A DNA stretch of 27,467 nt from an uncultured Chitinophagales bacterium (GCA_964359075.1 CAYHRX010000001.1:1-27467); one strand, 5' to 3'. Numbered from the stretch's first letter, positions 11,873-24,770 are shown. Numbers and translations: made by a program. Notes: generated from the letters alone by a model not told the origin.

Positions 11873-11885
11873 CCTCACGCTGAGA
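11873..11885. promoter_or_regulatory. Putative enhancer (activator-binding) palindrome
   Basis: CCTCA-CGC-TGAGA, a near-perfect match to the locus motif TCTCA-N3-TGAGA. Confidence 0.45.
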
Positions 11886-11890
11886 TAGTT

Positions 11891-12295
11891 TCACGCGACT
11901 CGAACTCCAGCCGCCACGTGCTCCCGTCCAGAAAATTCGTCATACAGGAACGCAAGGAGTTCGTGCTTCAACGAGTACTTGTCAATAAAACCATCGGCCG
12001 AGTGTTGCCAGGCCATGCTGCGATAGAGGCTGCTTCCGTTCATCGAGAGAATGACCACCTTCGTGCCCGGCAAACGAAGCTTGATCTCCCGTGTCGCACT
12101 GAAGCCGTCTCGCCCTGGCATATCCAGATCCATCAGCACAAGATCCGGATGAAGCTTTTCTGCCTGGTCGATCGCTTCGACACCGTCAGCAGCTTCACCG
12201 ACGATTTCAACGCCCGGCTGGGCCCGGAGAAACGAAAGAAGTGAGCGCCGAAAACTCTCGTGATCGTCAGCGACCAGAACTCTGATTGATTTCAT
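11891..12295 (-). CDS. Stand-alone response regulator receiver protein (NarL-type REC, no output domain)
   Basis: VLVADDH acidic pocket, PDLVLMDLDMPGRDG with phosphoacceptor Asp, GFIDK with conserved Lys; 134 aa; SD GGAGAG upstream. Confidence 0.92.
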   Translation of the reverse strand: MKSIRVLVADDHESFRRSLLSFLRAQPGVEIVGEAADGVEAIDQAEKLHPDLVLMDLDMPGRDGFSATREIKLRLPGTKVVILSMNGSSLYRSMAWQHSADGFIDKYSLKHELLAFLYDEFSGREHVAAGVRVA

Positions 12296-12339
12296 GATGT
12301 AACTCTCCTTAAGTGTTGAGGTAAGTGAATTGTCAAATC

Positions 12340-12759
12340 TCAGGAATTCCCAGACCGCGCTACACCGTTGGACGCGTACACGGCGGCCAGGAGAAGGGAT
12401 CCTTCACCGAACGTCGCTTCAAGACCCGGTTTCAAATCGGATTTCGCGATAAATCCATCCGCGCGTACCTCCTGAGCCCGCAAGCGGTAGGCTGCGTCGT
12501 CATTCATCGTCGCGATGACGACGACTTTGGAGGGCCAGCGTTGCTTGATGATGCGCGTCGCCTCCAACCCATTTCGATGGGGCATCGCGATGTCCATCAA
12601 CACAATATCGGGATTGAGCTGCTCCATCTTCTCGATGACATCAACCCCATCGATCGCTTCGCCCACCACGGAGACGTTGGGCATTCTGCTCAGGAATTCG
12701 CGAACGATTCTCCGGAAGTCGTTGTGATCATCCGCGATAAGGATCTTGACAGGCTCCAT
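12340..12759 (-). CDS. Stand-alone response regulator receiver protein (NarL-type REC, no output domain)
   Basis: ILIADDH, PDIVLMDIAMPHRNG, GFIAK; 139 aa; SD GAGGAG upstream; paralogue of the adjacent receiver. Confidence 0.92.
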   Translation of the reverse strand: MEPVKILIADDHNDFRRIVREFLSRMPNVSVVGEAIDGVDVIEKMEQLNPDIVLMDIAMPHRNGLEATRIIKQRWPSKVVVIATMNDDAAYRLRAQEVRADGFIAKSDLKPGLEATFGEGSLLLAAVYASNGVARSGNS

Positions 12760-12880
12760 GGTGATCTCCTCAGGAAATGCTTGAATGGAATTCCACTGGC
12801 ATCAAAATTCACACAAAAGGGCACGATCCACCATAGGATCAGCACCGTAATTTCAAAAATACGTGGTCGTACGGATGCGG

Positions 12881-12898
12881 CTACGGTCTGCACCGTAG
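12881..12898. promoter_or_regulatory. Perfect 7-bp inverted repeat upstream of the receiver pair (operator or small hairpin)
   Basis: CTACGGT-ctgc-ACCGTAG in the intergenic region; function unknown. Confidence 0.25.
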
Positions 12899-13124
12899 AC
12901 AAAGTGAGATCGGAGGTTAGATTATTGACGAATAGTGGCGTGAAGACAAAAAGTGGCGAGCGGGAAAGGGGAAAGCGATACCGCGGACGTTTTGGGAGAC
13001 GCGTAACGTCCGTCGCTACTCAACGAAGGGGGATAATTAACTGGATCAAAACTGGCTCGGGGGTGTAGACGAGCCGAAGGATATCAGAAGGTGAAAGACG
13101 CGAGGAAGGAAGAGAGTGGAAAAG

Positions 13125-13502
13125 TTAGTCCGAGACTGTCACGACAACTGCGCTCGAGACATGCTGTCGTTCAGCGTAACGTTTGCCAGTGTCTGCGCCG
13201 GCGGCGGAAGTTGAAGCGTCAAGTTCGAAGCTGAGATTCCGTTGGCGAGGTAAGTCTGCTGCGAGGGTAAGCTTTGGTTGCGATCGATACGCGCGGGTTT
13301 GTGCTGTGGACGCCGATCGTTCGCTCATCTGATCCACATTCTGTGATGCAGACGATTGGGAAGCCAGAGAGATCGGTCCATTCGTTCTGTGGACACTGAA
13401 CGTGACTGTCTGAGCTGCAGAACTTGATCGTTGCGCAAACGCCTGGCCTGCACACATCCCACACACAGCAACGAGAGCTACGATATGTCCGAGTGGTTTC
13501 AC
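13125..13502 (-). CDS. Small secreted protein, degenerate relative of the pilin-like family
   Basis: Signal peptide ending GQAFA/Q; N-terminal AAQTVTFSV like ANQTVTLAV of the major subunit; C-terminal VVVTVSD like TVTLTLTN; Ser/Ala/Gln-rich middle. GTG start without a clear SD. Confidence 0.6.
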   Translation of the reverse strand: MKPLGHIVALVAVCGMCAGQAFAQRSSSAAQTVTFSVHRTNGPISLASQSSASQNVDQMSERSASTAQTRAYRSQPKLTLAADLPRQRNLSFELDASTSAAGADTGKRYAERQHVSSAVVVTVSD

Positions 13503-13517
13503 AGGAGATGTCTACTT

Positions 13518-14009
13518 TTATTCCGTTAGCGTCAGCGTAATCACCCGAGACTGTGCATCAATCTCATTGACACTCTCGTTTGCCGCGAAGGTGTAGGTGA
13601 TGCTCTGATTCAAGACGCTCCCGCGGTTAATCCCTGTCACGACATTGATCGGTGTGCGAGCGCGCGAGATATCAACAGGACCGTTGCTGACACCTTGCGA
13701 ACTCTCGAGCTTGATCACAAGCTGGGTCCCTTCGGGCATCACATCGCTGATCGAAGCAACGATCTTCATGTTGTCGAGATTCGTGAGCATGCTGTAGCGC
13801 GTGTTATTGTCACTCACGGACAAGACGTTCGGGTCACCCAATAGACCGTTGATGGTCAGTTCGCCAGGATTACCGTTGACTGCAATTTTCGTGATCGGTT
13901 TGACTTCAACAGTCACGATCTGAACGACACTGGCGCCGCTCTGTGCCACCAGTTGAAGGGGAACGAGTAGGAGTAAAAGAAGGATGAGTTTGTGAACTGC
14001 CTTAGCCAT
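13518..14009 (-). CDS. Secreted pilin-like subunit, clear paralogue of the duplicated major subunit (ORF can extend to 14051)
   Basis: Signal peptide MAKAVHKLILLLLLLVPLQLVA/Q; shares AV.GNPG.LT, SVSDN.T.YS, G.VDIS, VVTG.NRG, ITYTF.AN.S and TLTLT motifs with 20035..20535. Confidence 0.85.
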   Translation of the reverse strand: MAKAVHKLILLLLLLVPLQLVAQSGASVVQIVTVEVKPITKIAVNGNPGELTINGLLGDPNVLSVSDNNTRYSMLTNLDNMKIVASISDVMPEGTQLVIKLESSQGVSNGPVDISRARTPINVVTGINRGSVLNQSITYTFAANESVNEIDAQSRVITLTLTE

Positions 14010-14095
14010 TGTCTTGAAGAAGTAAGCAAAACAAACGATGAATGTCAACATGTTTCACGATTTTCGACGCAGAATGTTCGACCTCCAGACATAGC

Positions 14096-14111
14096 ATCAA
14101 GAGGAATGCCA
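14096..14111 (-). promoter_or_regulatory. Putative sigma54-type promoter (-24/-12)
   Basis: Minus strand TGGCAT-TCCTC-TTGAT; GG and -12 box at sigma54 spacing; intergenic and upstream of the 13518..14009 gene. Confidence 0.6.
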
Positions 14112-14139
14112 AAACGCTGACGTTTTCAATTTTGTGTGT

Positions 14140-14152
14140 TCTCGTTTTGAGT
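14140..14152. promoter_or_regulatory. Putative enhancer palindrome (single site)
   Basis: TCTCG-TTT-TGAGT, about 36 nt upstream of the -24 box, closer than at the other promoters. Confidence 0.35.
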
Positions 14153-14391
14153 CAGCGCATGCAAGGCTGTTGAGGTCAACGCTTTCACTGTCCATTTCGG
14201 ATGACATCAGATCGATTTGAAATTTCTACAAGGAGTGGGCTTAGCTCGAGTCCATGAGTTGACATCCGAGAAGGATAAATCTCGTAAAGCGCGTGAAGCA
14301 CCGACAGATTCTTCACGAGCAGAGTAAGGAAGGATTCCAATGAGATCTCAGGGAGGCGGGAGGCAGAGATCTACACGAGAGCTCCTTGAGA

Positions 14392-17300
14392 TTACCGTTT
14401 CTTCCGGATCTCTTGAGCCGCGATTTCGGCGAGCTTTTTTGATGAGAAGTTACCAACGTAGACGCTGTACCGAGTTCCAAGTTGCCGCAACACCGTCTTT
14501 CTAACAAATGCGTGATATCCAAATGCTCGCTGCAGATTGGCGGCTTCACGGACTGCTTTTTCTTCCGTGACCCAGGAGGACACCAGGATTGAGAATCCAG
14601 TCTCCTTCGGTAGACGCACCACAATATGCGTCGTATCAAGAGTCTTTATCGGAGCCAGCTTAGTCGTCGGCCGTGGAGGCTTTGCCACCACTGGCGGCTG
14701 GGCCGGCTTCTTTCGCTCGACCGGCTTCGTTTCCTCGAGCAACTTGCCTTCCTGCAGTATCTGAATCCGTCGTCTTCGTGGAAGTATCTTCAGCTCAATG
14801 TGCTGTGTCCCGCCGGGAGCGACTTCAAGTTCGACTCCCTCCTTCTCAAAATAATGATTGGCAGGCAAGTTACCTTCGACCACTTGGAGGGACCACCGAC
14901 CCGGCCGCATTCCAGTAAAACTGAAACGGCCTCGATTGTCAGAAATACGACGGTGGGATTCAAGGGAATTCGCCAGCTCCAATATCACATTGGAATGACC
15001 TCCGAGTTCGGCATACGCTATGCGGGTAGTGTCTATCTGTACGGAGTCTATCAGACCGTAGAGCAAGACCGTCCCGGAGATCGTCGCACCGCGAATCACC
15101 CCAAGATCGACCCGAGCCTCTTCACCCCCTTTGATCGTTATCTCCCGCGGCATCGGCTGCGACGGGACACGATTGAGACCGATGCTCCCCATATCGATCT
15201 GGATATAGTACTTGTCAGGCTTCAAGGACGGGAAAAAGAATTCTCCGTTGCGATCCGTCACTGCCGTAGCGCCACTGGCATAAATCAGAACATTGGGCAA
15301 ACCCTTTCCAGCTTCAGCATCGACAACGCTGCCGCGAAGTCGTCCGGTCGTGGTGATGCGAGAGAGGGAAACGCCAATGGGAATACTATACTCGAGGAGG
15401 TACGCGACATCCTTCGAGCCGAACGAGGGAGTGAACTCGCTTTGCCGGCCCCTCAACGCGAGCCGGTGGCCGAAGGGGAATGTGTGTTCGAGCGCAACAT
15501 CAATCAAATAGTAGGTCTGCTTGATCGAGTCAGGCGTACGACTGCCATACGCGCTCAACGTGAACTGAGTTCGGGCACCGAGCATGAGCCAAGCGCTCAA
15601 GCTTCCAGAGAGGCGCTTCTGTATCTCATCGGTGAAAATATTTTGGTCTTTCGAGTATTCGACGGATAGACCAATGCTCGAGAAAGATGTGGGTCTGAAG
15701 TTTGTGAAGAGCGTGTACCGTTGAAAGGGATACTTCTTCCCAACGACCGTATCTTGAGTCCTGCCGAAATCGGCGTTGGCAATGAACCCGAGAGATGAGA
15801 AGTTGTGCCCCATACGAACCTGCACCAGCTCCTCGTCCCGTCTGTACTTCGGAATCGGCAAGAGATCATCTTGATGGTTCAGTCGATAGTAAATCGCCAG
15901 GAGATCGGAATATCCCGCTCCGAACTGAAAGTAGCGCTCGCGAGGGGCAAAAAAGAGAGTCGTATCTCGCTCAAGATTGCGCTCCTCATCGCGGAAGTAC
16001 GCCTCCAGCCTGATATTGCTCCACGGCATCACGCTAAGATTGAGCGTCTTGAATTCTAGGTCCTTGTAGTAGCCGGCGTACTTTGGCCCCGCCCAAACAT
16101 ACCGTGCCTCATAGGCAATCCATTGCTCGCGTCCGGTAACGCGCGCCGAGTATGCTTTGTCAGCCAGACCCCCTCTGTACCCCCGACCGTACTCAAGGTC
16201 GACTTCTGAGTTCTTGAGAGGCCGGAGGAGACTTCGGACCGTAACGATATCACTCTTTGTCTGATCGATCTTTCGCAGGTAGTTGAGACCAAGCTCGGAG
16301 CTCTGCCCCAACCGGTAGCTGAGAAACCCAGCCGCCTCCTTCTGCAGCGGCACGAGAAATCGGGTTTCGTTGTAGAAGCCTCCAATCGTCACGAGACCAA
16401 GCGCCGCCTTGCCTCCTGCCCCGAACGCGTATCGGTTGAATTCTGTCAATGGCGAGAGGTTGTAGTTCTTGTCACCTGCGTAGACTTCATACCCTTCGGT
16501 TTGGTAACTGATAAGGTATTCGTCACGCTGCCCCAGAATCGATCGCTGTTGAATGTCAGGAGTTCGAAGTAGAACGTCCAGCCGATCGCGTCGCCCTTCG
16601 CCAAGAGCACCGGATCCCATGATCTCGACCTGAGCACCTTTCGCCGTCCGCCCTCCCGCGGCACGCAAGCGAACCTGCAATGGAAATTCAAAGAACTGAT
16701 CTTCCACGCCGGTAACCTTCGGCACAACCTCGACTGAGCCTGAGGCTCGACCGGCGAAGAGGGAATCTTGGTCGCGCATCGCAAGGATCTCGAATACGTC
16801 CTGAACCTTCTGCAACAGCCGAGGTTCTGTCTGGACAACCGCCTTCAGCTGACGCGTTTCGTTGGGCCTCAGTTGGACTCTACTTGAATCCAACTGGACA
16901 GAAAAGTTGTTGCTGCTTCGCGGTGTGAGGCGAATCCTTCCTACTGCATTCCCCTTATTTGTGATGAGGAAGAGAGCAGTGTACGGGTCCCCTGCCAGAA
17001 CATATCTGGGCAGTTCCAGCAGCCTCAACTCAAGTTGTTGGACGGAGGTTACAACCACTGTGACGGAGGCTTGTGCTGTGGTCGTTGGAGCAGCCGCATC
17101 CTTGACGCTGTAGTGAATCTCGTAGCGAGCGGCAGGAGTTTCGGCAGGAATCGAAAAGCTGATGAGACGGATGTCGCTTGCTCCGGCGGAGAGCTCATAC
17201 GCAGTCTCTTTCTTGAACGCCCTCCAACCGGTCGGAAGAACAACGCTCGGCTCAAGCCGCACCGACGCCATCGAGTTGTTGGAGACCCTCATACTGACTG

Positions 17301-17484
17301 TCACAATCTTGCCAGGCGGCGTCTCGACACGCGGTTCGCTTGCCGGACGCACCTCGATGTTCTGTGCCTGAACACCATGAACAGCCACCGGCGCCAGCAC
17401 GGCAAGCATCAGAATAAAAAAAAATATCCGGTTGTGATGGACCGGATGTATCATCGCACGCAAATTCACTGTCGTCGAGGTCAA
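14392..17484 (-). CDS. Usher-like outer-membrane assembly protein: two N-terminal Ig/NEW3-like domains, central beta-barrel-like region, two carboxypeptidase-regulatory-like domains, Pro/Lys linker, C-terminal SPOR-like domain
   Basis: Signal peptide ending HGVQA/Q. PGKIVTVSMRVSN...LPTGW and AGDPYTALFLITNKGN are Ig-like segments, followed by a long run of amphipathic beta-strands. GRLRGSVVD...TDRNGEFFFPSLKPDKY and ATISGTV...SDNRGRFSFTGMRPGRW are CarboxypepD_reg-like repeats. The tail GFSILVSSW...RYSVYVGNFSSKKLAEIAAQEI is SPOR-like. TTG start overlaps the chaperone TGA stop (TTGA); alternative ATG starts at 17454 and 17409. Confidence 0.75.
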   Translation of the reverse strand: MTSTTVNLRAMIHPVHHNRIFFFILMLAVLAPVAVHGVQAQNIEVRPASEPRVETPPGKIVTVSMRVSNNSMASVRLEPSVVLPTGWRAFKKETAYELSAGASDIRLISFSIPAETPAARYEIHYSVKDAAAPTTTAQASVTVVVTSVQQLELRLLELPRYVLAGDPYTALFLITNKGNAVGRIRLTPRSSNNFSVQLDSSRVQLRPNETRQLKAVVQTEPRLLQKVQDVFEILAMRDQDSLFAGRASGSVEVVPKVTGVEDQFFEFPLQVRLRAAGGRTAKGAQVEIMGSGALGEGRRDRLDVLLRTPDIQQRSILGQRDEYLISYQTEGYEVYAGDKNYNLSPLTEFNRYAFGAGGKAALGLVTIGGFYNETRFLVPLQKEAAGFLSYRLGQSSELGLNYLRKIDQTKSDIVTVRSLLRPLKNSEVDLEYGRGYRGGLADKAYSARVTGREQWIAYEARYVWAGPKYAGYYKDLEFKTLNLSVMPWSNIRLEAYFRDEERNLERDTTLFFAPRERYFQFGAGYSDLLAIYYRLNHQDDLLPIPKYRRDEELVQVRMGHNFSSLGFIANADFGRTQDTVVGKKYPFQRYTLFTNFRPTSFSSIGLSVEYSKDQNIFTDEIQKRLSGSLSAWLMLGARTQFTLSAYGSRTPDSIKQTYYLIDVALEHTFPFGHRLALRGRQSEFTPSFGSKDVAYLLEYSIPIGVSLSRITTTGRLRGSVVDAEAGKGLPNVLIYASGATAVTDRNGEFFFPSLKPDKYYIQIDMGSIGLNRVPSQPMPREITIKGGEEARVDLGVIRGATISGTVLLYGLIDSVQIDTTRIAYAELGGHSNVILELANSLESHRRISDNRGRFSFTGMRPGRWSLQVVEGNLPANHYFEKEGVELEVAPGGTQHIELKILPRRRRIQILQEGKLLEETKPVERKKPAQPPVVAKPPRPTTKLAPIKTLDTTHIVVRLPKETGFSILVSSWVTEEKAVREAANLQRAFGYHAFVRKTVLRQLGTRYSVYVGNFSSKKLAEIAAQEIRKKR
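17416..17424 (-). repeat. T9 homopolymer in the 5' end of the usher-like gene
   Basis: Plus strand A9 (agaat-aaaaaaaaa-tatcc); coding strand ATA TTT TTT TTT ATT (IFFFI). Confidence 0.8.
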
Positions 17485-18299
17485 AACTTCAATGTGTACT
17501 CTGCTCCATAGACATCATCACCGCCAGCATCGACAACAACCAATGCTTTGTATGTGCCAGTTGAGACCTTGCTGAGGTCTATCATTTGTCGCACAGATGT
17601 GCCGGGATACATCCGATACCGGATCCCCGCGTACTTGCCTTGCGACACGCCTTTCTCATCAAACAACTCGACATAGACTTCCGGACGCATGCCAAGCTCG
17701 CCGCTGTTGCCAAGGTCGACCTGTAAGATCCTCTTTCCGTTTTCCTTCGTCACGAGCTTCGCGTCAAGAAACTCGACCTTCTTCGTACCCGTTTGCGCAA
17801 TATGCGTGGCGATCTGGATCCCATAGCGAATCGTCTGCCGAATCCCCATTTGCGTCTTCTTGGGGTCCCGCGGCTGTGTTGACTCTGCTGAACCCTTGGG
17901 AATGCCCTCAACCATCAACATGCTCCAGTACGAACCCACCAACGTATTCTCCTGCGTGGTTTCCGGCACAGCAACTGCATAATTGATGGTCACAGTTCCC
18001 TGCGGAGGGACCGTAAGATAGGACGGACTGAACGTCACCCATTTCGCGTTGGAGCGCACCAAGGTTCCGGGATCAGCATAGTTGTTTGTTCCATCGCGGT
18101 AAAACATATAGTCGGTTTGATATACCTTCGCTTCTTGCGGCTCATTGGTGTCGTTCCGAATAACGATGACGCCTTCATACCGTTCTCCGGGCCGAGTCTC
18201 TCGGTCATGGCTGAGCTCGCCAATAACGGACACTTGCGCGTACAGGGACAACGCTGCGAAAGAAATCATCGCGAAGGGGAGGAAGAATCGCGTGTGCAT
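17481..18299 (-). CDS. Periplasmic two-domain Ig-like (PapD/DUF916-like) pilus chaperone candidate
   Basis: Probable start MHTRFF at 18299 with signal peptide ending SLYA/Q. PGERYEGVIVIRN...WVTFSPSYLTVPPQGTVTINYAV...GSYWSMLMVE first domain and LQVDLGNSG...YPGTSVRQ...GTYKALVVVD second domain are typical of chaperone-like proteins beside usher genes. Confidence 0.75.
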   Translation of the reverse strand: MHTRFFLPFAMISFAALSLYAQVSVIGELSHDRETRPGERYEGVIVIRNDTNEPQEAKVYQTDYMFYRDGTNNYADPGTLVRSNAKWVTFSPSYLTVPPQGTVTINYAVAVPETTQENTLVGSYWSMLMVEGIPKGSAESTQPRDPKKTQMGIRQTIRYGIQIATHIAQTGTKKVEFLDAKLVTKENGKRILQVDLGNSGELGMRPEVYVELFDEKGVSQGKYAGIRYRMYPGTSVRQMIDLSKVSTGTYKALVVVDAGGDDVYGAEYTLKF

Positions 18300-18306
18300 G
18301 GGGAGC

Positions 18307-18807
18307 CTATAGTACAAGTAGGGTGTAGGTAACCGTATGAACGTCGTTCCCTTGCTCTGCGCTGTTGCCTTGAGCAAAAGTCGCCGACGCCGTGTATCGA
18401 AGTGTGATCGTCGTAACAGTGAATCCTGCGTTTGGAATGTTCGTGACGAAATCCGTGTCCAGCATCCCGTTCACGAGTGTGACCTCCGGGGCAGCGACCC
18501 CTCGCGTCACGCCGGTCCCCAATACTTTCAAGGTAAAGCTTTGACTAGGACAGGTCGTCCGTACGGTTATCTTGCTGATCGCTGCTTGCCTTCGGTATCG
18601 AAGCGTTGAAGCAGTATTGACTACCGGCAGCGGTTCTGAGCCTGGCGAACCAGTGGTGATATTCAGAGTCTGATTGCCGCCGCGGACATCAATCGGCTGC
18701 GCTTTCATCTCTGCTGCAGAACAAACGATCGCAAGCAGCAAGACACCGAGCGAGATTGCCATCCGTTCTGCTCGAGGACTTCCAGGATGTTTTGCCTTCT
18801 CAGCCAT
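18307..18807 (-). CDS. Secreted minor pilin-like subunit lacking the family's first N-terminal strand
   Basis: Probable start MAEKAKH (18807) or MAISLGV (18762); signal peptide ending EMKA/Q; KITV, PEVTL, LRYTASA and HTVTYTL motifs are shared with neighbours. Confidence 0.8.
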   Translation of the reverse strand: MAEKAKHPGSPRAERMAISLGVLLLAIVCSAAEMKAQPIDVRGGNQTLNITTGSPGSEPLPVVNTASTLRYRRQAAISKITVRTTCPSQSFTLKVLGTGVTRGVAAPEVTLVNGMLDTDFVTNIPNAGFTVTTITLRYTASATFAQGNSAEQGNDVHTVTYTLLVL

Positions 18808-18826
18808 GGCGGATTTCGGACCGCTA

Positions 18827-19336
18827 CTAATTTGTGACAGTGAATGTGATCGTATGGGAATCTGTTCCGGTGCCCTGGGATGCGAGCGCAGCACCTGTGT
18901 ACCGCAAGGTGCAACTCCCAGTTGATCGCCCAATGTTCAGCAAGAAATCGCTTGCCGTTGTGCTCAGCGTGACTTCAGGCATCGCCGTGCCCACCGTTGG
19001 ACTCAACGCCACGACCTTTAGAGTAAACTGCGGTGCAGCAAGATTGCTATTGACGGTAATCTTTCTGTTCGCACTGTTGACGCCCCACAAAAGGTTTGAT
19101 GTCTGGTCAACGACTGTCCCTAGTGCGTCCTGTCCAGCAACTGCGCCAGCACCGGTGATCGTAAGGCTAACACTTGGCGAACTTACTTGGACTGCCGTAA
19201 TCGTCGCCACAGTGACAGTCACGGTATGAAAATCCGAGCCATAGACCTGCGCCGTTGCTCTTCCAATGAAGCAGAAATGACAGAGAATCAGCGCAATCAA
19301 TGCGAACGGCTTTTTCAGTGAGCGTCCCGATTTCAC
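18827..19336 (-). CDS. Secreted minor pilin-like subunit
   Basis: Probable GTG start at 19336 (VKSGRSLKKPFALIALILCHFCFIGRATA/Q). HTVTVTV N-terminal strand, RKITV, PEVTLS, CTLRYTG, SHTITFTVTN. The ORF-track extension to 19534 overlaps the upstream gene. Confidence 0.8.
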   Translation of the reverse strand: MKSGRSLKKPFALIALILCHFCFIGRATAQVYGSDFHTVTVTVATITAVQVSSPSVSLTITGAGAVAGQDALGTVVDQTSNLLWGVNSANRKITVNSNLAAPQFTLKVVALSPTVGTAMPEVTLSTTASDFLLNIGRSTGSCTLRYTGAALASQGTGTDSHTITFTVTN

Positions 19337-19443
19337 AGTGCGCGTTTTTGGCAAAAGAACCCCGGTGGAGGCAACGGACAGGTGGAATATAGGTTCAATC
19401 GAATTGAGATTCAAGATGCACAACCGTATTGGTAACAGCGGCT

Positions 19444-19953
19444 CTAACTGCCTGTAATCGTATAGGTAATAATATACGTTTCGCTGCCGACGCCATCGCC
19501 GATCTTCGCCGATGCCGTAAACTTGACCTTGCATCTCCCTATGGTCTTCGAAACGCCGATTACCATGTCTTTGGTGGTATTATCGCTGAGAACAACCTCC
19601 GGACCAGCGACCCCGGCCGAGTTGGGGACATCGAGGGCAACGAGCTTTATGAGGAAACGGGGGGAAGGGTTGTTGCTTGCAACGGTAATTTTCTTATTCT
19701 CACCATTGGTTATCCACATCAACACTCCCTCTTCATTCACCGCCGGAATCGCCTTTCCATCTTCGAGCGATGCTTGGTCAATGATGAGCGTGACTGCGGT
19801 GTTGTTGATACCGATCTTGTTGATCTCGAGAACCTGGAGGGTGAGAACCTGATCCGTGCTGGCCTGTTGACCGATGAGCCGGGCTGAGAACAGGAAGCTC
19901 AGGAGCGTTGCCTTCCACCATCTTGCAGCCATATTTTTGATTCCAGCTTTCAT
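19444..19953 (-). CDS. Secreted minor pilin-like subunit
   Basis: Signal peptide; QVLTLQV N-terminal strand, KKITV, PEVVLS, CKVKFTASA, YIITYTITGS; aligns by eye with 18827..19336. Confidence 0.85.
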   Translation of the reverse strand: MKAGIKNMAARWWKATLLSFLFSARLIGQQASTDQVLTLQVLEINKIGINNTAVTLIIDQASLEDGKAIPAVNEEGVLMWITNGENKKITVASNNPSPRFLIKLVALDVPNSAGVAGPEVVLSDNTTKDMVIGVSKTIGRCKVKFTASAKIGDGVGSETYIITYTITGS

Positions 19954-19981
19954 TGGTCGTCGATCCTTCTGATGATCCAGG

Positions 19982-20017
19982 ATCCGCGGCCGGTCACTCC
20001 CGGAACCAGCCGCGGAT
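19982..20017 (-). other. Strong GC-rich stem-loop between the major subunit gene and the minor genes, with no U-tract
   Basis: Minus strand ATCCGCGGCTGGT-tccgggagtg-ACCGGCCGCGGAT: 13-bp stem including one G-U pair, 17 nt after the stop codon. Confidence 0.65.
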
Positions 20018-20034
20018 ACTTCCTCGCTTGGAAA

Positions 20035-20535
20035 CTAGTTTGTCAAGGTCAGGGTGACGGTCTTGCTTGTGGAACTGAGCGTGCCAGCCGACGCATTCGC
20101 TGAGAAGGTGTAAGTAATCGCCTGTCCCGCATCTGCTCCTCTGTTCATCCCCGTGACCACATCCACTGCACTGCCTGAAGTCGCATTCGAAATGTCAACG
20201 TTGCCTGCACTCGTACCCTTCGTGCTCGCAAGATTCAATAACAGCGTGTAGCCCGCTGACAACGCTGCATCCATATAGGCAGTGACCTTCACCGTGCTGG
20301 CAACATTCTGCGTGATGCTGTAGTTCGTTGAGTTATCACTGACCGATGACAGAGCATCCACTCCTGCCGTACCGGTCGTGACTGTCAACGCACCAGGGTT
20401 GCCAGATACCGCAAGCCTATAGACCGCATTCACAGCCAGTGTGACGGTCTGGTTTGCAGTTGCCTGAGCCATTGCGCTTTGCACAAGAACCATACTCAGA
20501 ACTGCAGCGACGAGTGTTACGACGATCTTTTTCAT
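20035..20535 (-). CDS. Major pilin-like subunit, copy A (166 aa)
   Basis: SD GGAG-tttaca-ATG; signal peptide MKKIVVTLVAAVLSMVLVQSAMA/Q; no Cys; Ala/Ser/Thr-rich beta-strand protein with N-terminal ANQTVTLAV and C-terminal KTVTLTLTN; has its own promoter. Confidence 0.88.
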   Translation of the reverse strand: MKKIVVTLVAAVLSMVLVQSAMAQATANQTVTLAVNAVYRLAVSGNPGALTVTTGTAGVDALSSVSDNSTNYSITQNVASTVKVTAYMDAALSAGYTLLLNLASTKGTSAGNVDISNATSGSAVDVVTGMNRGADAGQAITYTFSANASAGTLSSTSKTVTLTLTN

Positions 20536-20602
20536 TGTAAACTCCTTGTGTGTATTAAGTTCTTTGGGCATCCCATTCGGTCTCTTATCTGTTCCATAAT
20601 AG

Positions 20603-20618
20603 CTCAAACGCTGTGCCA
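20603..20618 (-). promoter_or_regulatory. Putative sigma54-type promoter for copy A and the downstream operon
   Basis: Minus strand TGGCAC-AGCGT-TTGAG. Confidence 0.7.
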
Positions 20619-20671
20619 GCGCCTCTGCTCGACTTTTCCTTTATTTTCCAACCCCGCGGCTCGGGTGCCTG

Positions 20672-20703
20672 TACCAAAATGATTACGCTGATTCAGAATG
20701 AGA
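20672..20703. promoter_or_regulatory. Putative paired enhancer sites
   Basis: TACCA-AAA-TGATT, 6-nt spacer, ATTCA-GAA-TGAGA. Further single matches at 20779-20791 (TCTCA-ATC-TGAAA) and 20818-20830. Confidence 0.45.
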
Positions 20704-20887
20704 AGGGGAACGCTAGTCTCTTTTTTGCAACAAGCTCGCAATCCCGTCTTGAATCCTGATGCATCAGCACGGCTTCCGTCTCAATCTGAAAGCGAGATCC
20801 ATCCTTGAACGCCAGTACCACAAAATGAGATTTCAGAAGGTAAGCAGCTTGGCTGGACGAAGGTATCTGATTGAACGCTTGGAGGGT

Positions 20888-20936
20888 AAAAAAAACACAA
20901 AGAGGGTCTCAACTTGCGTTGAGAACCCCCTCTGTG
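20888..20936 (-). terminator. Rho-independent terminator after copy B
   Basis: Minus strand cacagagggggttctcaac-GCAA-gttgagaccctctttgtg-tttttttt: bulged stem, GNRA tetraloop, T8 tail. Confidence 0.75.
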
Positions 20937-20970
20937 CTTATCGGAGGCGACGGGATGCTCCGCGATAAGA

Positions 20971-21471
20971 CTAGTTTGTCAAGGTCAGGGTGACGGTTTT
21001 GCTTGTGGAACTGAGCGTGCCAGCCGACGCATTCGCTGAGAAGGTGTAGCTAATCGCCTGTCCCGCATCTGCTCCTCTGTTCATCCCCGTGACCACATCC
21101 ACTGCACTGCCTGAAGTCGCATTCGAAATGTCAACGTTGCCTGCACTCGTACCCTTCGTGCTCGCAAGATTCAATAACAGCGTGTAGCCCGCTGACAACG
21201 CTGCATCCATATAGGCAGTGACCTTCACCGTGCTGGCAACATTCTGCGTGATGCTGTAGTTCGTTGAGTTATCACTGACCGATGACAGAGCATCCACTCC
21301 TGCCGTACCGGTCGTGACTGTCAACGCACCAGGGTTGCCAGATACCGCAAGCCTATAGACCGCATTCACAGCCAGTGTGACGGTCTGGTTTGCAGTTGCC
21401 TGAGCCATTGCGCTTTGCACAAGAACCATACTCAGAACTGCAGCGACGAGTGTTACGACGATCTTTTTCAT
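20971..21471 (-). CDS. Major pilin-like subunit, copy B (166 aa)
   Basis: SD GGAGG-ctaca-ATG; identical to copy A except ITYTF -> ISYTF. Confidence 0.88.
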   Translation of the reverse strand: MKKIVVTLVAAVLSMVLVQSAMAQATANQTVTLAVNAVYRLAVSGNPGALTVTTGTAGVDALSSVSDNSTNYSITQNVASTVKVTAYMDAALSAGYTLLLNLASTKGTSAGNVDISNATSGSAVDVVTGMNRGADAGQAISYTFSANASAGTLSSTSKTVTLTLTN

Positions 21472-21524
21472 TGTAGCCTCCGACGAGTATTTTGTTTGCT
21501 GTTTCATTGTTCTGGTGTAGCTAC

Positions 21525-21540
21525 CTCAATAGCTGTGCCA
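21525..21540 (-). promoter_or_regulatory. Putative sigma54-type promoter for copy B
   Basis: Minus strand TGGCAC-AGCTA-TTGAG. Confidence 0.7.
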
Positions 21541-21595
21541 GGCTCTCTTTCCTAAGAAACTCAAGAGAACGGTTCATCTGTCCCCGTTTGAGCTG

Positions 21596-21627
21596 TGTCA
21601 TTTTGAGTTTGTTGACTCAAATTGAGA
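21596..21627. promoter_or_regulatory. Putative paired enhancer sites
   Basis: TGTCA-TTT-TGAGT, 6-nt spacer, ACTCA-AAT-TGAGA; the whole 32-mer is nearly palindromic. Confidence 0.6.
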
Positions 21628-21686
21628 CCAGGCTCCAAGATGGCATTAAATCATTCAACACGCAAAAAAGCCCGGAGAATAGGTTC

Positions 21687-21718
21687 TTTGGATTTGAGTG
21701 ATACCTCTCAGTCTGAGA
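21687..21718. promoter_or_regulatory. Putative paired enhancer sites
   Basis: TTTGG-ATT-TGAGT, 6-nt spacer, perfect TCTCA-GTC-TGAGA. Confidence 0.55.
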
Positions 21719-21793
21719 CAGCCAGGATGCTGGCGCATTTGAACATGTGAGAAATAGTGCCCGTTCCGGCCCAAATAATTGGATTAGCCCATA

Positions 21794-21809
21794 TGGCATA
21801 CCTCTTGAG
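21794..21809 (+). promoter_or_regulatory. Putative sigma54-type promoter for the kinase-activator operon
   Basis: Plus strand TGGCAT-ACCTC-TTGAG, matching the 14096-14111 site at 14 of 16 positions. Confidence 0.65.
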
Positions 21810-21919
21810 TTAGATCTATTAGTCAAAGCCTTGCGCGCGAAGTGTCCAGATCTGATGTCGGGGCGCGCGAGACGTGTTGTGCTTCAACATCTTCAGTTCA
21901 TAGACAATCGGTGACGAGC

Positions 21920-22645
21920 ATGGAACATCTTGTACATACGAGAACGGACGAGAGCGAAGTGCTCTCAAGGATTTCCCACGAACTTCGAACGCCGCTGACG
22001 TCCATCATCGGCTACGCCGAAGTTATGTTAAGCGACCCGAGGTTGTCTCCCGATCTCAAGCGCGAGTACGTGGAGATCATCAGGGACGCAGGGAAACGAT
22101 TGTCGAATTTTCTTGACAACTACTTTGACAGTACGTTCGCGGAACGCGAGAAACAACCTCGAGGTCGATCGGACGAGGACTTGTCAGTGATCGTGAAGTG
22201 GTCGGTGGACCTCGTCTCCGCCGATGCGGAGGTAAAATCCGTGTCATTCAGCTCGGCGTGCGACCAGTCTGTCATCCTCGCGAATGTCAATACTACTCAC
22301 CTTGTGCATATCCTGCAAAACATTTTGACGAACGCCATACAGCTCGCCCCAAGGGGCGGTCATGTGGAGATTCAGGTCGTGGCGGATTCCTCCTCCATCG
22401 AAATCCTCATAATCAATCGGGATTTGGGCATTCTGAGCACATCGGTGACGAGCGTTTGCCAGAACTTTAGGTGGATTCAATCCCCCGGCGTTGAGATACG
22501 CGAAAACGGGCTGGGTCTTGCATTTGCCAAACATGTTGTCGAACTTGAGGGGGGGGAACTGACCGTTCAGACAGACCATGAAGAGGGTCTGACGTTCAAA
22601 CTCGAATTTCCGAATCGGTCCACGGCCACAACCGCACACTCTTGA
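21920..22645 (+). CDS. Sensorless histidine kinase-like protein (HisKA plus degenerate HATPase_c)
   Basis: H-box SHELRTPLTSIIGYAE within ~20 aa of the probable ATG (21920); N-box LQNILTNAI; G1 region reads IINRDLGI, F-box VCQNF, G2 ENGLGL. The ORF track extends to a GTG at 21842. Confidence 0.85.
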   Translation: MEHLVHTRTDESEVLSRISHELRTPLTSIIGYAEVMLSDPRLSPDLKREYVEIIRDAGKRLSNFLDNYFDSTFAEREKQPRGRSDEDLSVIVKWSVDLVSADAEVKSVSFSSACDQSVILANVNTTHLVHILQNILTNAIQLAPRGGHVEIQVVADSSSIEILIINRDLGILSTSVTSVCQNFRWIQSPGVEIRENGLGLAFAKHVVELEGGELTVQTDHEEGLTFKLEFPNRSTATTAHS

Positions 22646-22661: not shown

Positions 22662-24047
22662 ATGACATCCGAACGACTTATCTACATCGTTGACGACGAG
22701 GACACAATCGCGCGTCTTCTCGAGCATTGGGTCACGAAAAAGTGGGGCTATCAATCGCGATTATTCGTCACAGGCGAAGCGTGCCTGGAAAACCTAACCA
22801 CGGTACCCGACGTCATTCTCCTCGACATCATGCTTCCGGGCATCGGCGGCGTTGATACGCTGAAGGAGATCAAAAATCGTTTTCCTGATCTCCCGGTGAT
22901 AATGCTTTCTGCCCAGGGTAAAATCGATGTTGCGATCGAGACGCTCAAACTTGGCGCAACAGACTACTTTACAAAACCTGTGGATTTTTCCAAGCTGGAA
23001 GTGAGTGTCAAGAATGCCATCCAGACACACGACCTCGCACGCGAAGTCACCCGACTGCGGGAAGCTGTCGAAAAACCGGTCCACTTCGAAAACATCATTA
23101 CCGATAACGGCGCAATGCAGGAGGTCTTCAAGCTCGTGCAGAAGGTGAAAGACAGCGACATCTGCGTGCTTGTGCTGGGAGAGAGCGGAACGGGAAAAGA
23201 ATTGATCGCGCGAGCGATTCACTACAATGGTAATCGGAAGAATCAACCGTTTGTGGTTGTCAACTGCGCATCAATTCCAAGAGATTTGCTGGAGAGCGAG
23301 CTGTTCGGCCACGAAAAAGGTTCGTTTACCGGTGCGTATCAACGGCGCATCGGCAAGTTCGAACAAGCGATCGGGGGCACACTGTTTCTTGACGAAATTG
23401 GCGAGCTCGATCTCAGCCTTCAGGCTAAGCTGCTCCGCGTCATCCAGAGCAAGCAGTTTGAGCGTGTCGGAGGAAACGAGACGTTGACGACGGATGTTCG
23501 GCTTGTCTCGGCAACCAACAGAGATATTGTGAAAGCCGTCGCTCAAAAGCAGTTCCGCGAGGACCTCTATTTCCGGCTGGCCACGTTCCCGATCCTCATT
23601 CCACCGTTGCGCGACCGACGATCCGATATTCTGCTTTTGTCAGAACATTTCCTTAAGCGCTTCTCGCAAGAGCTTTCGAAGCCAAGCATGGGTTTTTCAA
23701 AGAAAGCGCTCAAGCTCATGTACGACTATGCGTGGCCTGGCAACGTTCGTGAACTGGAGAATGCTATCCAGCGTGCCACCCTTATGTCGGACGGCAACAG
23801 CATCACGGAGAAAGACCTTCCCCTGGCTGTGTTGACCTTTGGTTCACAAGACGACGCCGGTTCAGGCTCGCCTCTTACTATCGGCGTAGAAGCCATCAAG
23901 CCACTCGAAAAGATCAAAGAAGAAACGATTCGCGAGGCACTGAAGGTTACAGAAGGAAATATTGTTGAGGCTGCGAGAAGGTTGAAGATCGGGCGTGCGA
24001 CGATGTATCGATCGATGAAGAAGTACAAGATCACCGAGCAGAAGTAG
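22662..24047 (+). CDS. NtrC-family sigma54-dependent response regulator (REC, AAA+, Fis-type HTH)
   Basis: IYIVDDE and LLDIMLPG receiver; Walker A GESGTGKE; ESELFGHEKGSFTGA (GAFTGA-loop variant); Walker B LFLDEIGEL; FREDLYFRL; WPGNVRELEN; GNIVEAARRLKIGRATMYR HTH. Confidence 0.97.
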   Translation: MTSERLIYIVDDEDTIARLLEHWVTKKWGYQSRLFVTGEACLENLTTVPDVILLDIMLPGIGGVDTLKEIKNRFPDLPVIMLSAQGKIDVAIETLKLGATDYFTKPVDFSKLEVSVKNAIQTHDLAREVTRLREAVEKPVHFENIITDNGAMQEVFKLVQKVKDSDICVLVLGESGTGKELIARAIHYNGNRKNQPFVVVNCASIPRDLLESELFGHEKGSFTGAYQRRIGKFEQAIGGTLFLDEIGELDLSLQAKLLRVIQSKQFERVGGNETLTTDVRLVSATNRDIVKAVAQKQFREDLYFRLATFPILIPPLRDRRSDILLLSEHFLKRFSQELSKPSMGFSKKALKLMYDYAWPGNVRELENAIQRATLMSDGNSITEKDLPLAVLTFGSQDDAGSGSPLTIGVEAIKPLEKIKEETIREALKVTEGNIVEAARRLKIGRATMYRSMKKYKITEQK

Positions 24048-24080: not shown

Positions 24081-24770
24081 CTAGGATTCCTTCGGTGTTT
24101 GATCCCCCGCTCCAAGGCTTGTAATTCCGTGCTCGATGGCATATCGAACAAGGTTCGCCAAGTCGTGGATATTGAGTTTCTGCATGATATTCGTTCGGTG
24201 CGTGTCAACCGTGCGCGGGCTAATGCAGAGATGATCAGCAATCTGCTGGTTGGTAAGCCCCTTCGCCACGAGTCCGAGGATCTCCTTCTCCCTTCTCGTG
24301 AGGGGAATATCTCCGGCCTTTGACGACGCTTCCCCTCCTTCCATCCGCCGGACATAGCTTTCCGCCATGATCTCAGAGACGCGAGGGCTAAAGAACTTCT
24401 CCCCTTTCGCCACAGCTCGGATCGCTGCTGAGAGCTCTTCCTTCCCAGCGCTCTTCAAAACATAGCCGCCAGCTCCCGATTTGAGTATCTGGTAGACGTA
24501 CTCTTCGTTTTCGTGCATCGTCAGAACCAGAACTCTGACTTCGGGATACTTCTTCGTTATGATCTTGGTTGCTTCTATCCCGGAGAGCTTCGGCATCGAC
24601 AGATCCATGACCACGACATCCGGCTCGAGATCTTTCGTTTTCTCGACGGCTTCCTCGCCGTCCTGAGCTTCCCCGACAATCTCAAAGTCTTTGTAGGTCT
24701 GGAGTAGCGTAGCGATGCCGCTCCGGATGAGCGTGTGGTCATCAGCGAGCAGTATGCGAATCTTATCCAT
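24081..24770 (-). CDS. NarL/LuxR-family response regulator
   Basis: ILLADDH and VVMDLSMP receiver; LTRREKEILGLVAKGLTNQQIADHLCISPRTVDTHRTNIMQKL LuxR HTH; overlaps the upstream kinase by 8 nt. Confidence 0.97.
   Translation of the reverse strand: MDKIRILLADDHTLIRSGIATLLQTYKDFEIVGEAQDGEEAVEKTKDLEPDVVVMDLSMPKLSGIEATKIITKKYPEVRVLVLTMHENEEYVYQILKSGAGGYVLKSAGKEELSAAIRAVAKGEKFFSPRVSEIMAESYVRRMEGGEASSKAGDIPLTRREKEILGLVAKGLTNQQIADHLCISPRTVDTHRTNIMQKLNIHDLANLVRYAIEHGITSLGAGDQTPKES

What the first reader, a model, noticed from the sequence alone, without database searches (positions are those of the whole stretch)
11873..21718. Candidate enhancer motif TCTCA-N3-TGAGA in 19-bp-spaced pairs at a constant distance from the promoters
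Pairs of 13-bp palindromic sites with a 6-nt spacer occur at 21596-21627, 21687-21718 and 20672-20703, with single sites at 11873-11885, 14140-14152, 20779-20791 and 12897-12909. The proximal site centres lie about 61, 63 and 65 nt upstream of the -24 boxes of copy A, copy B and the giant gene (seen). Tandem dimer sites roughly 80-150 nt upstream of the start site are how NtrC-family activators work (established). This is probably the binding motif of the encoded activator and ties the giant adhesin into the fimbrial regulon (inference). Some half-sites are weak matches.
Basis: partly seen in the sequence, partly recalled or inferred. Interest (0 to 1): 0.66.

Follow-up and report, generated by a model that had tools for sequence, protein, structure and literature searches.

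The report
Conserved enhancer sites for sigma-54 activator
A short palindrome (TCTCA-N3-TGAGAC) sits about 81 bases upstream of sigma-54-type promoters for two pilin-like genes and for the neighbouring kinase-activator operon, keeps that position in dozens of related uncultured genomes, and is most likely the activator's binding site; it is a well-supported but ordinary regulatory element, and its proposed link to the giant gene is not supported.

Summary
The motif is real. A matrix built only from relatives puts four window sites at 18-21 bits: 21615-21627, 20691-20703, 14140-14152 and 21706-21718. About two thirds of the rest of the genome holds one such site.

The strongest sites lie 79-82 nt upstream of the T of TGGCAY-N5-TTGA promoters. 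These are P178 (21540, -), P190 (20618, -) and the kinase/activator promoter (21794, +).

The arrangement holds in metagenome and genome relatives that carry an orthologous kinase-activator cassette. 35 of 55 non-redundant promoters have a site at -78 to -85. Blind k-mer and dyad searches on relatives alone recover TCTCA/TGAGA and CTCA-N3-TGAG as top hits.

The 5-N3-5 geometry matches the published LuxO and SypG enhancers. The best reading is an upstream activator sequence for the adjacent NtrC-type activator, which also feeds back on its own operon.

Three listed sites are no better than chance: 21687-21699, 12897-12909 and the giant-gene site 11873-11885 (7.7 bits, atypical -12, not conserved in the one relative where that region could be read).

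This is a new member of a known kind.

The parts
21706..21720 (+). Site S2, TCTCAGTCTGAGACA. It is the perfect palindrome, 82 nt upstream of the kinase-activator promoter and 172 nt upstream of P178.
   Evidence: 18.1 bits. A 10/10 site lies at -80 to -85 of the orthologous promoter in 13 of 15 relatives (the other two 8/10 and 9/10).
21613..21627 (-). Site S1, TCTCAATTTGAGTCA. It is the main enhancer site of P178, centred 81 nt upstream of the T of TGGCAC.
   Evidence: 20.7 bits, best in the window. Conserved at -78 to -82 in relatives.
21594..21608 (-). Site S1', ACTCAAAATGACACA. It is the weaker partner, 19 bp closer to P178 (-62).
   Evidence: 11.2 bits. A site at -59 to -62 recurs in 7 of 26 relatives' promoters at 8/10 or better, and 14 at 7/10 or better.
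21526..21540 (-). P178 sigma-54-type promoter, TGGCACAGCTATTGA.
   Evidence: Conserved TGGCAC-N5-TTGA in relatives.
21794..21808 (+). Sigma-54-type promoter of the kinase/activator operon, TGGCATACCTCTTGA.
   Evidence: Conserved in relatives.
20689..20703 (-). P190 main site, TCTCATTCTGAATCA, at -79.
   Evidence: 19.8 bits. The 13-mer core differs by one base in L021 and L024.
20670..20684 (-). P190 partner site, AATCATTTTGGTACA, at -60.
   Evidence: 13.1 bits. Identical in L021.
20779..20791 (.). P190 distal site, at -167.
   Evidence: 10.8 bits. Distal sites at -165 to -167 occur at second-copy pilin promoters in L021 and L024.
20604..20618 (-). P190 sigma-54-type promoter, TGGCACAGCGTTTGA.
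   Evidence: The unit is independent because a strong terminator follows the upstream gene.
14140..14154 (+). Site TCTCGTTTTGAGTCA, only 35 nt upstream of the P177 promoter and in the opposite orientation.
   Evidence: 18.9 bits. Conserved in position and orientation in L042.
14097..14111 (-). P177 sigma-54-type promoter, TGGCATTCCTCTTGA.
22662..24047 (+). NtrC-family activator (receiver, AAA+ sigma-54 interaction domain, HTH_8). It is the proposed binder.
   Evidence: GSFTGA loop and conserved HTH GNIVEAARRLKIGRATMYR.
21842..22645 (+). Short histidine kinase, first gene of the auto-regulated operon.
   Evidence: Syntenic in relatives.
20971..21507 (-). Pilin-like gene p178 (copy A). The likely true start is 21471, after a GGAGG.
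20035..20553 (-). Pilin-like gene copy B. The likely start is 20535.
   Evidence: (97% identity to copy A).
11873..11885 (.). Candidate site upstream of the giant gene. It is weak and not supported as part of the system.
   Evidence: (7.7 bits).

Best explanation
TCTCA-N3-TGAGAC(A) is the upstream activator sequence (enhancer) of a sigma-54 regulon local to this locus.

Proposed mechanism (inferred, not shown): dimers of the adjacent NtrC-type response regulator (22662-24047) bind the palindromes through their C-terminal Fis-type HTH. Once phosphorylated, they assemble into the AAA+ ring on the site pair at -81/-62 and remodel sigma-54 holoenzyme bound at TGGCAC-N5-TTGA.

Targets:
- the two near-identical pilin-like genes, each with its own promoter, site pair and distal site;
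- the activator's own kinase-activator operon, through the perfect site at -82, which gives positive feedback.

The divergent P178 and kinase promoters share two sites 91 bp apart, so each promoter has one site at about -81 and one at about -172. The third pilin-like gene (P177) has a strong, conserved site in an atypical place (-35, inverted). Its role, whether activation, cross-talk or repression, is open.

Shown: the sites, their positions, their conservation and their enrichment.
For: - Four exact TGGCAY-N5-TTGA promoters in the window; rpoN is present in the genome.
- Site positions: -81/-62/-172 (P178), -79/-60/-167 (P190), -82/-173 (kinase promoter).
- The two paralogous promoter regions align only at the promoter and at the sites.
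- Metagenome relatives with pilin-like proteins 70-83% identical have otherwise diverged flanks. 18 of 26 non-redundant promoters have a site of at least 8/10 at -83 to -77, against a 0.9% chance per promoter.
- The perfect site lies at -80 to -85 of the kinase-activator promoter in 13 of 15 relatives; the other two carry 8/10 and 9/10 sites there.
- With the window excluded, the top 5-mer is TCTCA/TGAGA (117 against 26 expected) and the top inverted dyad is CTCA-N3-TGAG (40 against 2.0).
- The orthologous kinase-activator pair (activator 58-88% identical) lies divergent to the pilin-like gene in relatives. Its HTH is nearly invariant.
- Published enhancers of HTH_8 activators share the geometry: LuxO TTGCAWWWTGCAA and SypG TTCTCANNNTGMDWN (PMC10162802).
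- The composite pattern, site plus 70-78 nt plus TGGCAY, gives about 33 hits against 2 for the reversed control in 401 genomes of the class. About 20 of the 29 inspected also have TTG at the -12 position, which the pattern did not require.
- In one aquifer RNA library, contigs cover only the pilin-like gene and the 5' part of the kinase gene within 13 kb. This is weak evidence.
Against: - There is no binding or expression experiment.
- The NarL-type regulator and its PAS/GAF kinase are syntenic with the cassette in most relatives, so co-occurrence does not separate the two regulators.
- The -12 element is TTGA, not the canonical TTGC.
- In the low-GC family where the same architecture is commonest, the best activator homologues are only 41-44% identical and have a different HTH.
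- Low-GC homologues with a near-identical HTH have no such sites nearby or genome-wide. So the HTH-to-motif link is not one-to-one.
- Relatives are kin, so the binomial P values overstate independence.
Confidence: 0.82

Rival explanations
1. The palindrome is the operator of the neighbouring NarL/GerE-type response regulator (24081-24770). That protein would modulate the promoters, while the sigma-54 activator binds elsewhere or acts from solution.
For: NarL and its PAS/GAF kinase are convergent neighbours of the activator here and in most relatives. GerE-type dimers also bind short palindromes (general knowledge).
Against: - The site sits at a fixed -81 from sigma-54 promoters, the classic enhancer position, and no other conserved palindrome is left over for the activator.
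- The 5-N3-5 geometry equals the LuxO and SypG sites.
- The same site-to-promoter architecture recurs at many promoters across the class.
- L031 keeps the sites but encodes no NarL C-terminus within 187 nt downstream of the activator (weak).
Confidence: 0.07
2. A different sigma-54 activator or other regulator, encoded elsewhere in the genome, binds the motif. The adjacent activator is only one of its targets.
For: - Related genomes carry 8-18 NtrC-family paralogues.
- In family f20 the motif occurs at up to 10 promoters per genome with no close orthologue of this activator.
Against: - In the window's own genome, the only sites of at least 9/10 that lie at these fixed distances (about 64-82 or 167-173 nt) from a sigma-54-like promoter are on this contig; two others, on C499 and C708, lie about 235 nt away. 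The regulator is therefore expected to be local.
- The activator gene co-occurs with the sites in every relative with enough sequence.
Confidence: 0.08
3. The matches are chance, or leftovers of the duplication that made the two pilin-like gene copies, and have no function.
For: The motif is short. Three of the ten listed sites are no better than chance. One 8/10 match (20907-20919) is simply part of a terminator hairpin.
Against: - The position is conserved in diverged relatives whose flanks are not alignable.
- Blind discovery recovers it.
- About two thirds of the rest of the genome, the part scanned, has one site of 18 bits or more against four here.
Confidence: 0.02

Closest known systems
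SypG enhancer (syp enhancer, TTCTCANNNTGMDWN) of Vibrio fischeri
   Same: - It has the same half-site, (T)TCTCA, the same N3 spacer and TG at the start of the second half.
- It lies upstream of sigma-54 promoters of surface or biofilm genes.
- It is bound by a receiver-AAA+-HTH_8 response regulator.
The motif is taken as quoted in PMC10162802.
   Different: - This is a different phylum. Relatives are labelled Ignavibacteria/Bacteroidota.
- Orthology to SypG was not tested. The activator is below the cut-off of every NCBIfam equivalog model, including the paralogous LuxO.
- The motif here is a full palindrome with a conserved C at position 14.
- The targets are pilin-like genes rather than a polysaccharide locus.
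- The original SypG paper could not be read.
LuxO enhancer (TTGCAWWWTGCAA) at qrr promoters
   Same: It is a 13-bp 5-N3-5 palindrome with an A/T-rich spacer, present as two sites upstream of a sigma-54 promoter.
   Different: - The half-site sequence differs (TTGCA against TCTCA).
- The activator scores 388.8 bits on the LuxO model against a cut-off of 800.
NtrC enhancer at glnAp2
   Same: Tandem dimer sites about 100-140 nt upstream of the start site nucleate the AAA+ oligomer, and the regulator's own operon is auto-regulated (general knowledge).
   Different: - The NtrC site is a 17-bp TGCACC-N5-GGTGCA.
- Here the spacing between sites is 19 bp, and the distance to the promoter is unusually rigid (mode -81, range -78 to -85).
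- The -12 element is TTGA.

Membership tests
Upstream activator sequence (enhancer) of a sigma-54-dependent activator | It lies roughly 80-200 nt upstream of a -24/-12 sigma-54 promoter. | tested here: met
   Site centres lie at -79 to -82, -60 to -62 and -167 to -173 from the T of TGGCAY. That is about -105, -87 and -195 from the predicted start.
Upstream activator sequence (enhancer) of a sigma-54-dependent activator | It has dyad symmetry suited to an HTH dimer, with two or more sites per promoter. | tested here: met
   The motif is a 5-N3-5 palindrome. There are two to three sites per promoter here and in relatives.
Upstream activator sequence (enhancer) of a sigma-54-dependent activator | A cognate activator is present, with an AAA+ sigma-54 interaction domain, a GAFTGA-type loop and a DNA-binding HTH, and rpoN is in the genome. 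| tested here: met
   Sigma54_activat, AAA_lid_14 and HTH_8 domains. The loop reads GSFTGA, and GAFTGA in some orthologues. rpoN is on contig C177.
Upstream activator sequence (enhancer) of a sigma-54-dependent activator | It is conserved in orthologous promoter regions (phylogenetic footprint). | tested here: met
Upstream activator sequence (enhancer) of a sigma-54-dependent activator | The activator binds the site, and transcription depends on the activator and on rpoN. | not testable with these tools
   This needs EMSA or DAP-seq and reporter assays.
Canonical sigma-54 promoter | It has GG at -24 and GC at -12 (TGGCAC-N5-TTGCW). | tested here: inconclusive
   The -24 element is perfect. The -12 element reads TTGA in all four window promoters and in 40 of 55 non-redundant promoters of the group. 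It is conserved, so probably functional, but non-canonical.
SypG/LuxO subfamily enhancer | A 5-N3-5 site is bound by an orthologue of LuxO or SypG. | tested here: not met
   The geometry matches. The activator is far below the LuxO equivalog cut-off (388.8 against 800 bits). No SypG model or sequence was available.
Giant gene as a regulon member | It has a sigma-54 promoter plus a site of comparable quality and position, conserved in relatives. | tested here: not met
   The site scores 7.7 bits. The -12 position reads CTCA. There is no counterpart in L042.

The most novel reading that the evidence does not exclude
The motif marks a lineage-wide sigma-54 regulon for surface proteins in Ignavibacteria-like bacteria. 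A SypG/LuxO-geometry enhancer pair is held at a rigid distance (about -81/-62 here, -77/-57 in a low-GC family) from promoters that often use a non-canonical -12 TTGA. It drives pilin-like genes here. Elsewhere it drives secreted LamG, FG-GAP, DUF11/thioester and T9SS-tailed proteins, at up to 10 promoters in one genome. The rigid spacing would imply activation without a flexible, IHF-bent loop.
Probability: 0.35. Interest if true: 0.55.

Novelty: new member of a known kind. Interest (0 to 1): 0.4.

Why it matters
- It gives a testable cis-element and regulator pair for an uncultured groundwater lineage.
- It defines which genes of this atypical pilus-like locus are switched on together, and predicts positive feedback on the activator operon.
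- It provides a search pattern (site plus 70-78 nt plus TGGCAY) that already picks out candidate sigma-54-controlled surface-protein genes in other genomes of the class.
- It removes an unsupported claim that the 3814-aa protein belongs to the same regulon.

Tried and rejected
- **Covariation of HTH and motif.** The recognition helix is almost invariant among orthologues. One variant (L031) has TATCA-type sites, but that is a single case. Low-GC homologues with a near-identical HTH have no sites locally or genome-wide. Family f20 genomes with many sites have activators with a different HTH. This cannot assign the binder.
- **Own-family relatives.** Homologous pilin-like promoters in other genera of the MAG's family carry other upstream palindromes: AAATTACC-N7-GGTAATT, or TGCACCAT repeats. 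They are useless for footprinting this motif but show that enhancers turn over.
- **Giant gene.** I tried to extend the 62-kb relative contig. The direct route failed. An exact-protein look-up reached that region and found no counterpart.
- **Rfam scan of the window.** No hit.
- **Literature.** The only other paper holding the CTCANNNTGAG string describes the NadQ operator, which is unrelated. Ray et al. 2013 on the SypG enhancer is not held.
- **RNA evidence.** Only assembler contigs were available, with no read starts, so no transcription start could be mapped.
Full report
**Setting**

The window is the whole of contig C1 of a 4.05-Mb, 801-contig MAG that is 93.6% complete. Gene order:
- a 3814-aa gene (299-11743, -);
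- a stand-alone receiver gene (11891-12295, -), probably preceded by a second one (12340-12759);
- a pilin-like gene, p177 (13518-14051, -);
- a 1030-aa CarboxypepD_reg/SPOR protein and several small paralogues, running up to 19953 (-);
- two pilin-like genes 97% identical to each other, copy B (20035-20553) and copy A (20971-21507), both on the minus strand;
- divergently, a short histidine kinase (21842-22645, +) and an NtrC-family activator with receiver, Sigma54_activat and HTH_8 domains (22662-24047, +);
- convergently, a NarL-type regulator and a PAS/GAF kinase.

The genome encodes rpoN.

**Promoters**

Four exact matches to TGGCAY-N5-TTGA lie directly upstream of p177 (T at 14111, -), copy B (20618, -), copy A (21540, -) and the kinase-activator operon (21794, +). 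A -31.8 kcal/mol hairpin followed by a U-run comes after copy A. Copy B is therefore its own transcription unit.

**The observation**

Positions below are measured from the T of TGGCA.

| Promoter | Main site | Partner site | Distal site |
|---|---|---|---|
| P178 (copy A) | -81 (9/10) | -62 (8/10) | -172 (10/10) |
| P190 (copy B) | -79 (8/10) | -60 | -167 (9/10) |
| Kinase-activator | -82 (10/10) | none | -173 (9/10) |

The divergent P178 and kinase promoters share the same two sites, 91 bp apart. The arrangement is mirror-symmetric.

When the two paralogous promoter regions are aligned, similarity is confined to the promoter and to these sites.

The strong sites sit at about 81.

**Chance**

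- Matches of at least 9/10 number 124 in the genome, with about 0.8 expected on this contig. Six are observed, four of them in about 2.4 kb of intergenic DNA.
- Among all 124, only those on this contig lie at these fixed distances upstream of a sigma-54-like promoter. Two others, on C499 and C708, lie about 235 nt from a TGGCAY.
- Perfect matches genome-wide (4) are about what composition predicts. This is a local element, not a dispersed repeat.

**Phylogenetic footprint**

The MAG's own family was uninformative. Three same-genus genomes lack the pilin-like gene. Other genera have it at 59% identity or less, with sigma-54 promoters but other upstream palindromes.

Metagenome contigs gave 21 closer loci, with the pilin-like protein 52-83% identical. 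In these the flanks are not alignable, yet three features recur:
- a perfect GTCTCA-N3-TGAGAC at -169 to -180;
- a site of 8-9/10 at -78 to -82;
- often a third site at -59 to -62.

Where upstream sequence exists, an orthologous kinase-activator pair (activator 58-85% identical) lies divergent to the pilin-like gene. Its own TGGCAY-N5-TTGA promoter has the strongest site at -81 to -85, in 7 of 7 loci.

Eleven further loci come from species-representative genomes labelled Ignavibacteria or Bacteroidota, with GC about 0.53. In all 8 that hold the region, the kinase-promoter site lies at -80 to -83, and it is a perfect match in 7.

Counting relatives only, 18 of 26 non-redundant promoters have a site of at least 8/10 at -83 to -77. 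The per-promoter chance is 0.9% (binomial P about 5e-31). This is overstated because relatives are kin. Pooling everything, 35 of 55 promoters have one at -78 to -85, with the mode at -81.

**Blind discovery**

With the window excluded, the most enriched 5-mer in the -200 to -30 regions is TCTCA/TGAGA (117 against 26 expected, present in 48 of 51 regions). The most enriched 6-mer is GTCTCA/TGAGAC. Among all 4-mer inverted dyads with spacers of 0-10, the top hit is CTCA-N3-TGAG (40 against 2.0).

The aligned sites give the consensus TCTCA-WWN-TGAGAC(A). C at position 14, on the promoter side, is present in 24 of 25 sites.

**Scoring the window with a relatives-only matrix**

- 21627(-) 20.7 bits
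- 20703(-) 19.8
- 14140(+) 18.9
- 21706(+) 18.1
- 20684(-) 13.1
- 21608(-) 11.2
- 20791(-) 10.8
- 11873(+) 7.7
- 21687 and 12897 score below 4.

About two thirds of the rest of the genome was scanned, and it has a single site of 18 bits or more. Of the four single sites, 14140 and 20779 hold, while 11873 and 12897 do not.

**P177**

The strong site at 14140-14154 lies only 35 nt upstream of the -24 T and faces away from the promoter. Both position and orientation are conserved in the closest relative, L042.

The same alignment shows other conserved blocks: TTGTAGAAATTTCAA at about -118 and CGAAATGGACA at about -90. The first recurs at paralogous promoters in other genera that lack the TCTCA motif. 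P177 may therefore answer mainly to another regulator, with this site adding cross-talk. That is inference.

**Giant gene**

- The 11873 site is weak.
- The putative promoter reads TGGCAC-ATGTT-CTCA, and lacks the TTGA found at every other promoter.
- In L042, the only relative where the region could be read, the gene after the two receiver genes is different. There is no TGGCAY promoter and no site there.

In other genomes of the class the same architecture does precede large secreted proteins. The idea is therefore not absurd, but nothing here supports it. I put it at about 0.15.

**Who binds**

Sigma-54 promoters need an AAA+ activator, and the only one in the locus is 22662-24047. It has a Walker A motif, a GSFTGA loop and an HTH (GNIVEAARRLKIGRATMYR) that is nearly invariant among orthologues. 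Its own operon carries the best site in every relative.

The 5-N3-5 geometry equals the published enhancers of two HTH_8 activators: LuxO TTGCAWWWTGCAA and SypG TTCTCANNNTGMDWN (PMC10162802). The latter shares the half-site.

Against this:
- The NarL-type regulator is syntenic in most relatives.
- L031 keeps the sites but shows no NarL C-terminus in the 187 nt after the activator gene. This is weak evidence.
- HTH-to-motif covariation was uninformative.

**Wider distribution**

The pattern TCTCANNNTGAGA-N70-78-TGGCAY occurs about 33 times in 20 of 401 sampled genomes of the class. The reversed control occurs twice.

About 20 of the 29 inspected hits also have TTG at the -12 position, which the pattern did not require. 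Many have a second site 20 bp downstream of the first. One genome has 10 such promoters.

Downstream genes there encode secreted LamG, FG-GAP, DUF11/thioester, List-Bact-repeat and T9SS-tailed proteins.

**Expression hint**

In one aquifer RNA library, the only contigs on 13.1 kb of the locus lie in the pilin-like gene and the first 245 nt of the kinase gene. This is consistent with the two promoters flanking the enhancer being active. It is not proof, because these are assembled contigs and DNA carry-over is possible.

**Verdict**

This is a genuine, conserved enhancer for a sigma-54 activator. It is most likely bound by the adjacent activator, with autoregulation. It is a new member of a well-known kind of element. 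The main site is at -81 rather than -62. One pair and two single sites fall away, and the link to the giant gene is unsupported.

Noticed in passing
window 14097-14111, 20604-20618, 21526-21540, 21794-21808: All four sigma-54-type promoters use TTGA instead of the canonical TTGC at -12. The same holds for 40 of 55 non-redundant promoters in relatives. Elsewhere in the genome both TTGC and TTGA forms look genuine.
   Followed up: partly
window about 12800-12930 (minus strand), L042:8140-8270: A block of about 125 nt upstream of the first receiver gene is far better conserved between the window and L042 than its flanks. It holds the hairpin CTACGG-TGCAGA-CCGTAG and a TATTTTTG box like a Bacteroidota -7 element. 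There is no Rfam hit.
   Followed up: partly
window 14215-14235 and about 14195-14205 (minus strand); loci L013-L019: P177 has conserved upstream blocks: TTGTAGAAATTTCAA at about -118 and CGAAATGGACA at about -90. GTGTAGAATCTGCAAT sits at the same distance in paralogous promoters of other genera, paired with an inverted copy about 65 nt downstream. It may be the site of a second regulator.
   Followed up: no
window 12340-12759 (-): A 139-aa ORF is probably a second stand-alone receiver gene. L042 has two adjacent Response_reg genes at the matching place, and the upstream regions align. It was not checked with Pfam.
   Followed up: no
whole window: The three same-genus genomes lack the pilin-like gene. 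The closest relatives of the cassette lie in other families and in MAGs labelled Ignavibacteria/Bacteroidota. This is either an accessory, transferred island or a binning question. Contig GC (0.543) matches the MAG (0.537).
   Followed up: partly
window 20893-20939 (minus strand): A strong intrinsic terminator follows copy A of the pilin-like gene: -31.8 kcal/mol, z = -6.5, with a U8 tail. The 8/10 motif match at 20907-20919 is just one arm of this hairpin.
   Followed up: yes
window 21471 and 20535: The likely start codons of the two pilin-like genes are the ATGs preceded by GGAGG and AGGAG. This gives 166-aa products, not the longer ORFs. The protein atlas holds the sequence from residue 13 onward.
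   Followed up: partly
L025 (metagenome contig): One relative keeps the promoter and the 40 nt before it, nearly as in L037. Further upstream it has unrelated, coding-like sequence and no sites, so it appears to be a natural enhancer-less variant.
   Followed up: no
L004-L008, L003/L033: Homologous pilin-like genes in other genera have sigma-54 promoters with quite different upstream palindromes. These are AAATTACC-N7-GGTAATT at about -88, or three to four TGCACCAT repeats. Enhancers turn over while the promoter class is kept.
   Followed up: no
window 21061-21409 and 21845-22089: In an aquifer metatranscriptome, the only contigs matching 13.1 kb of the locus lie on the pilin-like gene and the start of the kinase gene.
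   Followed up: partly
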